Shown here in pieces: positions 50,741-62,678 of a stretch of 64,000 bases of DNA (positions within the stretch are counted from its first letter, which is position 1; the number at the start of each line of letters is the position of its first letter). The stretch spans positions 33,604,001 through 33,668,000 of the forward strand of contig NC_043002.1 of NCBI RefSeq assembly GCF_006345805.1. Direction: 5' to 3'. This DNA is from Octopus sinensis (taxonomy: Eukaryota). Under the pieces are notes generated by a model. The model saw only the letters and a program-made list of their open reading frames with translations. It was not told the origin of the DNA and ran no database searches. The position numbers and the translations under genes are program-made.

Positions 50741-50865
50741 CTTTAGATATCACATTGTCAAGGTCCGTTTTTCTAAGGTGAGCCATATAACCCAGGATAC
50801 TAAACGATGTCAAACCAGACAAAAAACTAGTTAATCCATCTATTATTGGTAGAATGACGGCATCT
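50741..50865 (-). CDS. SLC6 paralog B exon (TM7)
   Basis: ttacag acceptor, G|gtaaat donor; (R)DAVILPIIDGLTSFLSGLTSFSILGYMAHLRKTDLDNVISK(G). Confidence 0.93.
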
Positions 50866-51797
50866 CTGTAAGAAATTGAAATAAATCAAGATTTACAAAA
50901 TGGAATCTATGTTAATAAGTCTGGATACAGGATTTAAAAAGGAGTAAATAAAACATTCCCGATAGAATTACTTCAAACACTGTTGATATCAAAAGTCCTC
51001 TCAAAACGTTGTGGAAGTACTGGAGACCAAAACGTAGAGAGTAATCCGGCAGTTCAGTTTCGATCATAATAATATCTACATATAAAAGTATTTCATCTGT
51101 CATGTTTGAGTTCATGTCAAGGTAAGAAATCGAAACTATACCAAAATTATCAAATATTATTTCATCAATTTATAGCCACGAAGTACTGAGTCAATATTGT
51201 AGTGTACAATCATATGGCTATCAACTGTCCAGTTTGTATTGCCACAAGCACTGAGTAGTATAAAATATCACTGTACTGTGTCCATGGAGAGAACACATGA
51301 TTGTCGATATAGCGTTTCAACAAGCTGTAAATAGGCACTTCATTGTGTTATGATAGCTCAGTCTACTGTGTCTATCGCGAACATTCTTGACAGTTAACAG
51401 TCTATCTAGCTGGATGTAAGTACCGTATTGTGGTGTGACAGATCATTGTATTGCGTCCAAGACCAATGCACTTTCGTATCAACTGTTAAGTCCATCAAGC
51501 TGAATGTAGATACTACAGTATGTATTGAAGTAGCTGCAGTTGGGTACCGAAATGCAGTCAACTTAAATCTATCCAAGATTTATTGGTGCAATGAAGAGTG
51601 ATCTCTCACATTGACGCTAATGTTTCGATTCATCGAGATGGACATTATTTTAACATTGCTTATTCCCTATTTTAAGTCATTAATTACAAAACTGAAACGA
51701 TATAACAGTTTGGTAGAAAATGCTCACTACATAAACTTCTACCCCAATATACTGACCGCAGTTGACACACCGATAATGATAGTAGAGAACGTATTAC

Positions 51798-51901
51798 CTC
51801 TGGCAGTCGTTATGGAAGTCGTTATAACTTGCTAATGTTGATAATCCACCTATACCGACTCCAATAGAGAAAAGTATTTGAGTTGCAGCATCTTTCCATA
51901 C
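51798..51901 (-). CDS. SLC6 paralog B exon (TM6)
   Basis: ttcaag acceptor, AG|gtaata donor; [34 protein letters not shown](R). Confidence 0.93.
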
Positions 51902-52374
51902 CTTGAAATAAGAAAAAGAAAACAGAAATATATTCAATTAGCATAATTATTGGTTTCTAACATAGTTAAATACGTTCGTAACCCGAGGAGACGGTTAGTT
52001 AATTTTCATAGTACGCTTATTTGACTGCTACTTTATCAATCTTTGAAGGATTAATTGTAAATCAAGTAGATTTGAATCCAGAGTATAAAGAAACACAACT
52101 AAATATTACAAGACCGTTTAAATAGGCACCGATGTCGACTTTACCTTCTATCATTTTGGGTGTCTCTGAATTAAGAACCAGTTGCACACTAGGGTCGACG
52201 AAATCGGCTAGCCTCACCTCCAAAAATCTCAAACTTTTTGCCTATAGTAAGAAGGATTTTGTTTTTCTTTGTAATTCAGATTTTGTTGGAACCCTTGGGG
52301 TCTTGCATGGGTAGCGGGTTTACTACCTTCAGCCTACAGTACTATGCTATTTGTTATTTTCAACTATTATTGTT

Positions 52375-52925
52375 ACTGAGAGAGGGAGCAGCGCATGCCA
52401 TCAAAGTGACACTGGGGTAAAAAAAAATGCGAAACTCAGTATACCCATCATGACTACGCGTCAGATAAAGGTTCACCAGGCACACACATCGCAACCATAT
52501 GTACGCAACATGGTAATCTCATGTCAAAATAAACAGCGCATGGCCTTGCAGGTGGGGCCCAGTTAAAATTTTCTTCAGGTCGTGTAGCCCATCCCACTCA
52601 AAACGTCCCTGATAAAGCGTTGTTTAAGGACGTTGAGCGAAACACCCATGTTTCCAGAGGTGAATTATTCAAGCCCCAAAGAATTCTTCTCAACACATGG
52701 CTATGATGTTCCACCACTACTTCTGCTCGTGACCAGAGATGCACATATCGTCAACCACTAAGGGACATGCACAAGTGGTTATGGTAAAACAACTGACAAG
52801 TAAATTTGTGATATTGAACAGAATATTTGCTGTAACCCATCTTTTATACCAAGACACATGTACAGGATAACACTGCCAATCAGTTAAGATCTGAAACCAT
52901 GAGAGCCAGTGCCTGGTACGGCATC
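52375..52925 (+). mobile_element. Common non-coding interspersed repeat (probable SINE or LINE UTR), followed by (TAG)n/(CAG)n at 52950-53082
   Basis: recognised from memory as an octopus repeat (gcatgccatcaaagtgacactggggtaaaa...); single copy here; class uncertain. Confidence 0.5.
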
Positions 52926-53691
52926 AAGACATTCATTGTTGTTGTTGTTGCTAGTAGTAGTAGTAGTAGTAGTAGTAGTAGTAGTAGTAGTAGTAGTAGT
53001 AGTAGTAGTAGTAGTAGCAGCAGCAGCAGCAGCAGCAGCAGCAGCAGTAGTAGTAGTAGTAGTAGTAGTAGTAGTAGTAGTAAGTCGGCGAGCTGACAGA
53101 ATCGGGCAAAATGCTTAGCGGCATTTCATCTGTGTCTACGTTCTGAGTTCAAATTCCGCCGCGGTAGACTTTGCTTTCATCCTTTCGGAGGTGATAAATT
53201 AAGTACCAGTGAAACACTGGAGTCGATCTAATCGACTCTCCCTTGGTGTCATAGTTAGAAATAAATCAATAATTCTTGTTGTTGTTGTTACAATTAAGCA
53301 AATCTGATCAGCTTTCTGTTGAGCATTTTCAGTAGCAGGTTCTATAATCACTTGGAAGAAACGCTAGTATAATTATAGTTGGGTGTGGAACCCTTCCACA
53401 ATATTGAGATCTGTTAGACATAACTTCCGTTGTAATACTTCCTACACCATTATTTCTGATACCTGTTCTCTCAAATATAAATGACTAGGTCATTGCTAAT
53501 CACAAAGATCACAGAGCTGATGAAAACCTTTGGTATTCTCGAGTGTTAATTATCTATCACTGGTAACTTTTCTGCTCAGAAGTTAGGCTTTGATATGAGG
53601 GTAACTTGGCTGCTATTTCTATAACTATAATACATATATTTGATAAACATGACATGAATTCGAGACGGCCGAAGAAAAGTTTTCCACTTAC

Positions 53692-53826
53692 CGAGATATC
53701 TTTTACTTTTTCCCAGTTTGGCTTCACGAAGTAATAAATTCCATCCATTGATCCCGGTAATGTTAAACCCCTTATCAGCAGGATTGTGAGGAAAACATAG
53801 GGCAAGGTAGCAGCAACGTACACAAC
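53692..53826 (-). CDS. SLC6 paralog B exon (TM5)
   Basis: gcag acceptor, TCG|gtaagt donor; [45 protein letters not shown]. Confidence 0.95.
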
Positions 53827-60220: not shown

Positions 60221-61434
60221 TGCAGTCTTCATGAAATGGGGATTTTTGAATGGATCCTCCACAAGCCTTTAGTCTGGTTTTGTATTGCGTGATTTTAAAA
60301 CTCTGTTTATTGGCGTTACTGCCAAGCATTTATTTGATGGGGACCTCAATGCGAATCTCTCAAAGCCCTCTCTTTGGCATGTACTTGTTCTGTATTATAT
60401 AAACCTCCAGTTCTTTGTTGCTTTTTTTTTTACAACAGCGGAATTTCGTATGTCAAAGTTTATCTGTTATTGTTACTTTTGCAGTTCTACATTTCTTAGG
60501 GGATTTTTGCTCTTCTTCTTTGTAATTATGCTGGTAAATGACTAGTTTCTTATCTTTTTCGTTAGTCATTTACGTTTTTACTTTTTTTCATGATGAGCTG
60601 AATGGTCACTAGTATTTTTTTTTTTTTTCCCTTCCGTGCCAGTGTTTTGTTAGGTTCTGACCTCCCCACTTCCCCTCTTCATTTGTTGAGGAATATGAAG
60701 GAAAATGGATCTCTGGTTGGTGGATGTATGTGTGCTTGTGCCATTTGTGCTCGTGTTGGTTTTGACCTGAAGATAGGAACGTTCCTTTGGGATTATTGTT
60801 TCGAAGCTGGTCCTGACCACTTTTTATGTATTGGTTATCTTTTATCTTTTAATTATTATAGTCACTGGACGGCGGTCATGCTGGGGCATCACCTTAAAGG
60901 ATTTTAGTCGAACAAATCGACCCCAATACTTATTCAGATATTCTTAGACGGAGTCGCATCTAAGAATATCTGAAGAAGGAAATATCATCGGACTATGGAT
61001 AACTAAATTAAAACAGATATATAGTCCATTTTTTTATATTATAGTGCATTGTTGTATCATTCAAAACTTTTTATTCATTATATATATATATATATATATA
61101 TTATATATATATATATATATACGACAGTGGACTTCTGTCAGTTTCTGTCTACCAAATCCACTCACAAGTTTGTGATCGGCTCGAAGCTATAGTAGAAGAC
61201 AGCCAAGGTACTACGTTGCTACGCAGTAGGACTGAACCCAGAACCATGTGGTTGGAAAGCAAGTTTCTTACCACACATCCATACCTGCTCCCGCCAGTGT
61301 TTGTGATTAGGTCTTTACAAAATGTGTAGAAATAAACAAACACACCAACACTAGTTTACTGCGATTCCATAGTTTACTCTTTAAACCACTAACACATAAC
61401 TGTAGGGGAAATTCACTCATGGATCCTCAGTTCC

Positions 61435-61791
61435 AGACTGTAGCCATGCTGGAGCACCGCCTTTAGTCGAGCTAATCAACCCCAGGACTCATTCTTTGTA
61501 AGCCTAGTATTTATTCTTTCGGTCTCATAGAACCGCTAAGTTACGGGAACGTAAACATACCAACATCGGTTGTCAAGCGATGTTGGGGGGACAAACACAG
61601 ATACACAAACATATACAGATACGTACATATATATATACAACGGGCTTCTTTCAGTTTCTGTCTACCAAATCCACTCACAAGGCTTTGGTCGGCCCGAGGC
61701 TGTAGTAGAAGACACTTGCCCAAGGTGCCACGCAGTGGGTGTGAACCCGGAACGATGTGGTTGGTAAGCAAACTACTTACCACACAGCCAA
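61435..61791 (-). mobile_element. SINE family A (second partial copy ~61123-61292)
   Basis: reverse complement of 28702-type consensus; absent from the homologous intron of paralog A. Confidence 0.88.
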
Positions 61792-61817
61792 CACCAAGAA
61801 GAAATAATTTAACTTAC

Positions 61818-62094
61818 TCCCAGTATTCTTCAACAGATGACTTCAGTACCAGAGATGAAGATACATTAACATCCAACGTTGTGTTTAGCATCGTATCTAA
61901 CGTAGAATTATCTCGAGAATTTTTCATCAAATAAATTGAGTCATAGCAAAGATGTGTATTCCAGGTGTTATTACAAGTACTCCAGGCAAGTGTGGGGTGC
62001 ATGGAAGTGTACAGGTAGTACAGTACCCAGGCTATGATCACATTGTAGTAGATACCAATAAGGGCATTTATTATAACCATTGCAGTGCCAACAC
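61818..62094 (-). CDS. SLC6 paralog B exon (TM3 + EL2)
   Basis: ttgtag acceptor, GA|gtaagt donor; GVGTAMVIINALIGIYYNVIIAW...WSTCNNTWNTHLC...EEYWE. Confidence 0.95.
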
Positions 62095-62546
62095 CTACAA
62101 AAGAACAAAAACACCAGTCAACAACAGCCGATTAAGGAACATTTATGTTGTTCAGACAGAGATAAGCCATTAAATCACCTTCAGATCACAAGCTGCCATT
62201 TTAATAAAAATGGACACATTAGTAAATGTATGTCAAGATGCACTATACCTGAAAATAATGGAATATTAACAGCCTGGTTAATTATAACTGACCTAATCCT
62301 AATCAACCACAAGCAATTGCAATAAACGTGAGATTTTAAAAAGGTCAAGCGATCTGCTGGGCATTGCAGTCAAGTCTCCTTTAAAATGCACACTAATGTC
62401 TAAAAAAAGGATACATTATATATTCCGTCGCCTTAAAAAGTGTAATTTGTGTGTCTTTGATTATATATCTACTCGATTAGGTTGGTCCTTGGTCTAAATA
62501 ACAACGATAACAACAGTAACAGCAATATAATAAAATGAAGATTTAC

Positions 62547-62678
62547 CTTTAAAAAGGGGGCACATAACCCATACTTTTCCTGGCCCTAAATTTGCAAATT
62601 GGGCAACAGCATTTTCAAGCAGTAATGTCGGGATGGCAGCAAATATCATAAATATAAAAAACGGAATGAGGAACGCTC
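62547..62678 (-). CDS. SLC6 paralog B exon (TM2); TM1 exon presumably beyond right edge
   Basis: aaacag acceptor, AAAG|gtaaat donor; GAFLIPFFIFMIFAAIPTLLLENAVAQFANLGPGKVWVMCPLFKG; same length and phase as 2043-2174. Confidence 0.95.

What the first reader, a model, noticed from the sequence alone, without database searches (positions are those of the whole stretch)
50741..62678. Remodelled ion site in these SLC6 transporters: TM2 Tyr to Phe plus TM7 Asn to Asp
Seen: both paralogs read GAFLIPFFIF where SLC6s normally have IPY (LeuT Y47, the Cl- coordinating Tyr). Paralog B TM7 reads IIDGLTS: Asp at the Na1 Asn (LeuT N286), Ser at the LeuT E290 position. TM6 Gln and Ser and the TM8 Na2 GLDS motif are kept. 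Established: Asp at this position underlies K+ handling in insect KAAT1 (D338), and an acidic residue here can replace Cl- in SERT mutants. Inference: Cl- independent and/or altered cation coupling in a mollusc-lineage SLC6 subfamily.
Basis: partly seen in the sequence, partly recalled or inferred. Interest (0 to 1): 0.72.

Follow-up and report, generated by a model that had tools for sequence, protein, structure and literature searches.

The report
Mollusc transporter with altered chloride site
Two octopus genes belong to an unstudied, mollusc-wide group of sodium-driven amino acid transporters whose chloride-binding site looks rebuilt so that chloride is probably no longer needed; each change is known from other transporters, but the combination, and an unusual histidine in the cargo pocket, were not found described.

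Summary
Paralog B (12 exons, 62678-41229, minus strand, spliced in 4 of 4 laid runs) has Phe at the chloride-binding Tyr (GlyT2 Y233, SERT Y121) and Asp at the Na1/Cl- Asn (N509, N368); the other Cl-/Na+ ligands are kept. The window proteins equal Octopus sinensis records; paralog A's record has both changes too. Phe is patchier (23 of 64). Each ion-site change has a precedent: Asp in insect NATs/KAAT1 (weakly Cl-dependent), Phe in human B0AT1 (Cl-independent). Best reading: a Na+-coupled, Cl-independent or weakly Cl-dependent amino acid/osmolyte symporter in which Asp supplies the charge (about 0.65, inferred, untested). KAAT1-like K+ coupling is not supported: the partner Lys is absent (0 of 65 vs 10 of 10 in NATs). 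New variant of a known kind.

The parts
62547..62678 (-). Paralog B exon (TM2), with Phe50 codon TTT at 62661-62659 (Cl- Tyr position); Ile59 sits where insect NATs have the Asp-partner Lys
61818..62094 (-). Paralog B exon (TM3, EL2); Tyr104 (LeuT Y108) kept
57256..57388 (-). Paralog B exon (TM4)
53692..53826 (-). Paralog B exon (TM5)
51798..51901 (-). Paralog B exon (TM6): Gln277 and Ser281 kept; Gly283 (GlyT2 S479, SIT1 G253) and Ile286 (GlyT2 W482)
50741..50865 (-). Paralog B exon (TM7): Asp313 codon GAT at 50840-50838 (Na1/Cl- Asn position), Ser317 at 50828-50826
49971..50083 (-). Paralog B exon (EL4-TM8): Na2 Asp381/Ser382 kept; EL4 has Gln356 where most relatives have Glu
45257..45388 (-). 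Paralog B exon (TM8-9): His386 codon at 45382-45380 (substrate pocket; TauT E406, GAT1 T400, B0AT1 N435, SERT G442) and Gln388 at 45376-45374 (SERT E444 position)
43446..43545 (-). Paralog B exon (TM10): gate Asp437 and Glu452 kept
43006..43106 (-). Paralog B exon (TM11)
42585..42755 (-). Paralog B exon (TM12)
41229..41342 (-). Paralog B last coding exon with stop; the first coding exon (residues 1-44, TM1) is not in the window and must lie beyond 64000
5870..5993 (-). Paralog A first coding exon (TM1): Met22, Val23 and Thr27 replace the usual Tyr, Ala and Gly; Gly25 and Asn28 kept
2043..2174 (-). Paralog A exon (TM2), Phe48 codon TTT at 2157-2155
277..553 (-). Paralog A exon (TM3, EL2); the rest of the gene runs off the window start

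Best explanation
Two tandem octopus paralogs of a mollusc-wide SLC6 subfamily of the amino-acid branch. Shown: intact, spliced genes with an SLC6 fold, both Na+ sites and the amino-acid Gly in TM1 kept, Asn replaced by Asp beside the Cl- pocket, the Cl- Tyr replaced by Phe. Inferred mechanism: Na+ drives uptake; Asp313 both binds Na1 and supplies the fixed negative charge that Cl- provides in GlyT/GAT/SERT, so transport is Cl-independent or only weakly Cl-dependent; once the Asp was in place the Tyr hydroxyl became dispensable and was lost or left variable in several lineages. By analogy with bacterial NSS the Asp may be protonated on the return step (H+ antiport; weaker inference). The substrate is probably not glycine alone despite the 'GlyT2-like' label: Gly283, Ile286 and bulky His386 point, by the SIT1/PROT rules, to small or N-substituted amino acids/osmolytes (proline, sarcosine, betaine, alanine class; about 0.45), with anionic side chains as the alternative.
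For: Register to GlyT2/SERT Cl- residues. Model pLDDT 85, TM-score 0.87 to GlyT2 9hue. Asp in 63 of 67 clade rows, clade support 99-100 by three trees, so it is under selection. Insect NATs with this Asp are weakly Cl-dependent and the authors ascribe that to its charge (PMC8310414 section 12). Human B0AT1 has Phe at the Tyr position and is Cl-independent (PMC10137170 passage), while Cl-dependent SIT1 uses Tyr47 (PMC10491607 passages). Phe occurs with a TM7 acid (LeuT 286, 287 or 290 column) in 38 of 41 rows against 65 of 245 for Tyr; 7 of 9 parsimony gains of Phe end on acid-bearing branches against 27% exposure, p 0.002. Pocket rules: PMC11217458 section 8, TauT E406.
Against: No functional data for any member. 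Four other Cl- ligands are fully kept (Gln and TM6 Ser 67 of 67, TM7 Ser 65 of 67, TM1 Asn 62 of 67). The phylogenetically independent tests are not significant (independent pairs median p 0.63 and 0.25; Phe gains on branches already acidic 3 of 9, p 0.26), and the order Asp-then-Phe is not resolved inside the clade because chiton and cephalopods, the deepest rows, have Phe. KAAT1 uptake still falls without Cl-. B0AT1's independence has been ascribed to permanently bound Cl-, so Phe need not mean an empty site. Documented acid-for-Cl- mutants are at the Ser one turn away. Gly at the SIT1 G253 position is common in these invertebrate rows (175 of 236 outside the clade) and so is a weak substrate clue.
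Confidence: 0.65

Rival explanations
1. Ordinary Na+/Cl- symporter: Cl- still binds to Asn30, Gln277, Ser281 and Ser317, the Asp only tunes Na1 affinity or stoichiometry, and Tyr-to-Phe is tolerated drift.
For: Those four ligands are nearly invariant in the clade; 41 of 64 clade rows keep Tyr; independent-pairs tests not significant; marine molluscs are not short of Cl- (general knowledge).
Against: A carboxylate next to the anion pocket and loss of a direct ligand both disfavour Cl-; the natural precedents for each change are weakly or not Cl-dependent.
Confidence: 0.2
2. KAAT1-like transporter that can be driven by K+ as well as Na+.
For: Same Asp as KAAT1 D338, whose mutants change cation selectivity; TM1 positions 21-22 are also altered here.
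Against: KAAT1 D338 works with K102; the matching column holds Lys/Arg in 10 of 10 NAT-clade rows and 0 of 65 scored rows of this clade (column inferred from T67 = LeuT N21 plus 35, KAAT1 not fetched). The clade does not group with NATs. Na2 Asp/Ser are kept, unlike the fly NAT P0207. Molluscs lack the K+-rich lepidopteran gut lumen (recalled).
Confidence: 0.07
3. In cephalopods the protein has drifted towards a poorly coupled or non-transporting role (leak channel or sensor).
For: All 14 cephalopod rows with a residue have Ala/Ser/Thr at the TM1 Gly that binds the substrate carboxyl (one row is misaligned), against Gly in 47 of 52 other clade rows; long branch to octopods.
Against: Open frame, splicing in 4 of 4 runs, orthologs in Octopus, Argonauta and Sepia with gate and Na+ residues kept; that Gly contributes a backbone NH, so small side chains can be tolerated (general knowledge).
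Confidence: 0.08

Closest known systems
Human GlyT2 (SLC6A5) / amino-acid branch GlyT1, PROT, ATB0,+
   Same: Best sequence and fold match (44% identity, TM-score 0.87); TM1 Gly for amino acids, Na2 site, E250/E648-equivalent glutamates kept.
   Different: Y233 is Phe, N509 Asp, S479 Gly, W482 Ile, T582 His, E584 Gln, Y207/A208/G212 changed; not grouped with the GlyT2-like row P0125. The database name 'GlyT2-like' is not an orthology statement.
Insect nutrient amino acid transporters (KAAT1, CAATCH1, NAT1)
   Same: Asp at the Na1 Asn with Ser at the LeuT E290 position; altered TM1 21-22.
   Different: Separate clade; NATs keep the Tyr and have a TM2 Lys/Arg partner (10 of 10 rows), this clade has none; His/Gln in TM8 absent from NATs.
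Human B0AT1 (SLC6A19)
   Same: Phe at the Cl- Tyr position (F74, native number from the 20-residue offset fixed by S431/N435), Cl-independent.
   Different: B0AT1 keeps the TM7 Asn, lacks the Na2 Asp, has the long EL4 and needs ACE2/collectrin; different branch.
Bacterial NSS (LeuT, TnaT, Tyt1)
   Same: A protein carboxylate in TM7 in place of Cl-; Gln at LeuT 361 (recalled).
   Different: Their documented acid is at the E290 position, one turn away; this protein is a eukaryotic amino-acid-branch member. Not aligned directly here.

Membership tests
SLC6/NSS | PF00209 over the whole length and LeuT fold | tested here: met
   E 1.4e-186, residues 8-543; Foldseek top hits all SLC6
SLC6/NSS amino-acid type | Gly (not Asp) at LeuT 24, Tyr at 108, Na1 Asn27/Ser254, Na2 Asp/Ser in TM8 | tested here: met
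Cl-dependent SLC6 | Complete Cl- shell Tyr, Gln, Ser, Asn, Ser | tested here: not met
   Phe50 and Asp313
Cl-dependent SLC6 | Transport needs Cl- | not testable with these tools
   needs flux or voltage-clamp assay
GlyT2 (SLC6A5) | Compact glycine pocket with S479 and W482; orthology | tested here: not met
   Gly283, Ile286; not in a clade with GlyT2-like P0125
Insect NAT / KAAT1 | Asp at Na1 Asn | tested here: met
Insect NAT / KAAT1 | TM2 Lys partner (K102) and NAT ancestry | tested here: not met
   0 of 65 vs 10 of 10; separate clades
Insect NAT / KAAT1 | K+-driven transport | not testable with these tools
   needs electrophysiology
B0AT1/SIT1 branch | Long EL4/TM7 extension and branch membership | tested here: not met
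   Aligns gap-free with GlyT2 through TM7-EL4-TM8, whereas B0AT1 has the long insert; P0255 (B0AT3-like) is far on the tree
Proline/imino SLC6 (SIT1, PROT) by pocket rules | Gly at SIT1 253 and a steric block at SIT1 410 | tested here: inconclusive
   Gly283 and His386 fit, but the TM1 Tyr that fixes the block in SIT1 is lost and Gly is common in outgroup rows

The most novel reading that the evidence does not exclude
Molluscs independently re-evolved a bacterial-style SLC6 that needs no chloride (fixed Asp, possibly exchanging H+), and the His placed at the family's main side-chain specificity position gives it a substrate class not known for the animal amino-acid branch, anionic amino acids such as L/D-aspartate or glutamate, or sulfonate/phosphonate osmolytes, with repeated Tyr-to-Phe loss as a natural experiment on how the Cl- site is dismantled.
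Probability: 0.12. Interest if true: 0.75.

Novelty: new variant of a known kind. Interest (0 to 1): 0.45.

Why it matters
Why animal SLC6 transporters need chloride while bacterial ones carry their own charge is an open question (stated as open in PMC8310414, section 12). This clade offers natural Tyr/Asp, Phe/Asp and Tyr/Asn orthologs (for example oyster, octopus or pond snail, and an abalone paralog) that test directly whether an Asp at Na1 replaces Cl- and what the Tyr adds. It also flags a mollusc-wide transporter, expanded in scallops and duplicated in octopus, that databases mislabel as GlyT1/GlyT2/GAT/PROT-like, which matters for using these genes as neurotransmitter markers and for understanding amino acid and osmolyte uptake in marine and freshwater molluscs.

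Tried and rejected
Assembly or splicing artefact: rejected. Octopus-specific novelty: rejected, the Asp is mollusc-wide and Phe/Asp also occurs in Sepia, chiton, heterobranch snails, one scallop paralog and 7 rows outside the clade. Co-evolution of Phe with the acid by independent pairs: not significant. Tissue of expression: no RNA holder listed as RNA and names are coded, so nothing learned on tissue. No whole genome held, so paralog number and B's first exon could not be checked in genomic DNA. Domoic acid uptake as this clade's job: not supported, mussel uptake is Na+-independent and partly Cl-dependent (PMC8310042, abstract and passages). Octopus arm atlas (bioRxiv 10.1101/2024.04.14.589438, passages) mentions a 'GlyT2' probe; its identity is in a supplement I could not see, so it may or may not be this gene. 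Papers on SERT N368D: none found. Papers describing this clade or site: none among the listings; the library lacks most subscription journals, and a record named AAT7 from Sinonovacula (outside this clade) suggests bivalve SLC6 surveys that I did not find. Earlier scan findings: none. PMC6166138 and PMC9564218 (passages) gave context only. No complex prediction was run; it does not bear on the question.
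Full report
Observation. Paralog B has 12 coding exons in the window, from 62678 to 41229 on the minus strand, all with AG/GT boundaries, giving 544 residues with no internal stop; its first exon (TM1) is not in the window. Paralog A starts at 5993 and leaves the window after three exons. B is identical over 544 aa to O. sinensis XP_036359705.1 (P0271) and A over 177 aa to XP_036359706.1 (P0273); the two full proteins are 78% identical and both carry Phe in TM2 and Asp in TM7. 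Contigs from 4 of 4 laid runs skip the two predicted introns around the TM7 exon and no other letter was listed (these runs are only guessed to be RNA).

Register. The Argonauta ortholog aligns gap-free with human GlyT2 through TM1-2 and TM6-8. Counting along that alignment puts Phe50 on Y233, Gln277 on Q473, Ser281 on S477, Asp313 on N509 and Ser317 on S513; PMC13273173 (passages) lists N213, Y233, Q473, N509 and S513 for the Cl- site and N509 for Na1. The SERT equivalents Y121, N368, S372 follow, and LeuT N286 = N368 from PMC6829555 (passage). LeuT was not aligned directly. An AlphaFold model (pLDDT 85) matches GlyT2 best (TM-score 0.87), and Pfam gives SNF over the whole length.

Distribution. 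I pooled the best 120 hits of two searches, the best 150 representatives and some cluster members; rows outside about 450-850 aa were dropped (240 of 271 kept, 54 of 57 new), as were rows with over 45% gaps, leaving 303 in the tree. The sample is biased to near relatives, so frequencies are not family-wide. The genes fall in a clade with support 1.0, 99 and SH-aLRT 100 (59 rows of a 93-row subset), whose named members are all molluscs: chiton, limpets, abalone, caeno- and heterobranch gastropods, bivalves (several paralogs in scallops) and cephalopods. Of its 67 rows (9 of them redundant cluster members, including the window protein), 63 have the Asp (2 abalone paralogs Asn, 1 misaligned, 1 gap), 60 have His at the TM8 pocket position and 64 have Gln at the TM8 Glu; outside it, 31, 3 and 7 of 236. 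Phe is in 23 of 64 scored clade rows: chiton, all cephalopods, all 7 heterobranch rows and one scallop paralog; whether it is ancestral or arose three to four times is unresolved. Among 278 scored non-redundant rows the Phe/Asp pair is in 21, 14 in this clade and 7 elsewhere. The nearest outside rows are a Lingula protein with Tyr/Asp and an unnamed one (support 93).

Ion coupling. Precedent for the Asp: KAAT1 D338, whose mutants alter ion selectivity and whose charge was proposed to explain weak Cl- dependence (PMC8310414, section 12 read). Precedent for the Phe: human B0AT1 has it and is Cl-independent (PMC10137170, passage), whereas SIT1 binds Cl- with Tyr47 (PMC10491607, passages); that review's remark that B0AT1/2 mostly have Asp does not hold for the human B0AT1 chain, which has Asn. 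In my set Phe goes with a TM7 acid in 38 of 41 rows, Tyr in 65 of 245. Corrected for kinship the signal is suggestive only: 7 of 9 gains end on acidic branches (p 0.002) but only 3 of 9 on branches already acidic (p 0.26), and independent pairs give p 0.63 and 0.25. Against a lost site, the other four ligands are almost invariant, B0AT1 may simply hold Cl- permanently, and the engineered acid-for-Cl- mutants I could document are at S331/S372; SERT N368D is recalled only (searches 21, 45 empty). I put reduced or absent Cl- dependence at about 0.65.

K+ coupling. KAAT1's Asp is held by K102. Counting from T67 = LeuT N21 that is residue 59 here, an Ile. The column has Lys/Arg in 10 of 10 rows of the NAT clade (one named as fly NAT1), in 0 of 65 scored rows of the mollusc clade and in none of the other 226 rows; NATs also keep the Tyr. 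The Asp therefore arose separately and in another setting, and K+ drive is unlikely.

His386 lies four residues after the Na2 Ser, the position of TauT E406 and GAT1 T400 (PMC13168702, passages) and of B0AT1 N435/SIT1 N410, where bulk excludes long side chains (PMC11217458, section 8 read). With Gly283 and Ile286 in place of GlyT2's S479 and W482 the pocket is not GlyT2's. TM1 is also changed: Tyr21 survives in 2 of 64 and Ala22 in none of the clade rows, and cephalopods replace Gly26. Small or N-substituted amino acids and osmolytes are my first guess; a His facing an anionic side chain is the bolder one (ATB0,+, the broadest member, excludes Glu and Asp; PMC9564218, passage). Neither is tested.

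Novelty. Searches listed no paper on this clade or site; I saw listings only, the library lacks most subscription journals, and no supplements were read (those of bioRxiv are closed; the O. bocki 'GlyT2' probe may bear on expression). Verdict: real, a new variant of a known kind. The individual substitutions are known, the combination with His/Gln in a mollusc-wide uncharacterised subfamily was not found described, and it is directly testable. Interest 0.45.

Noticed in passing
window 23712-24305 vs 40852-41443: A 594-bp, 94.6% identical copy of paralog B's last exon and flanks, with the same 40-residue translation, lies 17 kb downstream between the paralogs; no other exon is duplicated with it.
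   Followed up: partly
window 5930-5913 (paralog A TM1) and cephalopod orthologs: The TM1 Gly that binds the substrate carboxyl (LeuT G26) is Thr/Ser in octopods and Ala in Sepia-like rows, but Gly in 47 of 52 other clade rows.
   Followed up: partly
P0117, P0118, P0110, P0138, P0141, P0143, P0341, P0343 and relatives: A second mollusc SLC6 group has Gly/Ser/Cys at the Na1 Asn, Glu at the next residue (LeuT 287 column) and often Phe in TM2: another possible route to a chloride-free site.
   Followed up: partly
P0323, P0324, P0327 (Helobdella), P0342: A group including a leech protein has Asp at the Na1 Asn together with Thr at TM1 Asn27.
   Followed up: no
P0015, P0314, P0033, P0042, P0055, P0056, P0093, P0305: Mussel and scallop paralogs of the clade diversify the pocket and Na2 region further (His to Gln/Met/Val, Gln to Arg after the Na2 Ser, Na2 Asp to Asn).
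   Followed up: no
window 32419-37259 and 15353-17793: Two decayed LINE-type elements 83% alike, with endonuclease- and reverse-transcriptase-like frames (by eye) and an upstream zinc-knuckle ORF.
   Followed up: partly
window 48478-49086: LTR retrotransposon remnants (RT_RNaseH and integrase zinc-binding hits) in intron 7 of paralog B as numbered within the window.
   Followed up: partly
window 6395-7042: Tc1/mariner-like transposase fragment (by eye) just upstream of paralog A.
   Followed up: no
window 55254-55777 and 55763-56317: Tandem duplication of about 550 bp (91%) flanked by microsatellites inside an intron of paralog B; may be real or an assembly stutter.
   Followed up: no
P0001, P0002, P0222: The O. 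vulgaris and O. bimaculoides gene models for these paralogs lack exons or have a wrong N-terminus compared with the O. sinensis models.
   Followed up: no
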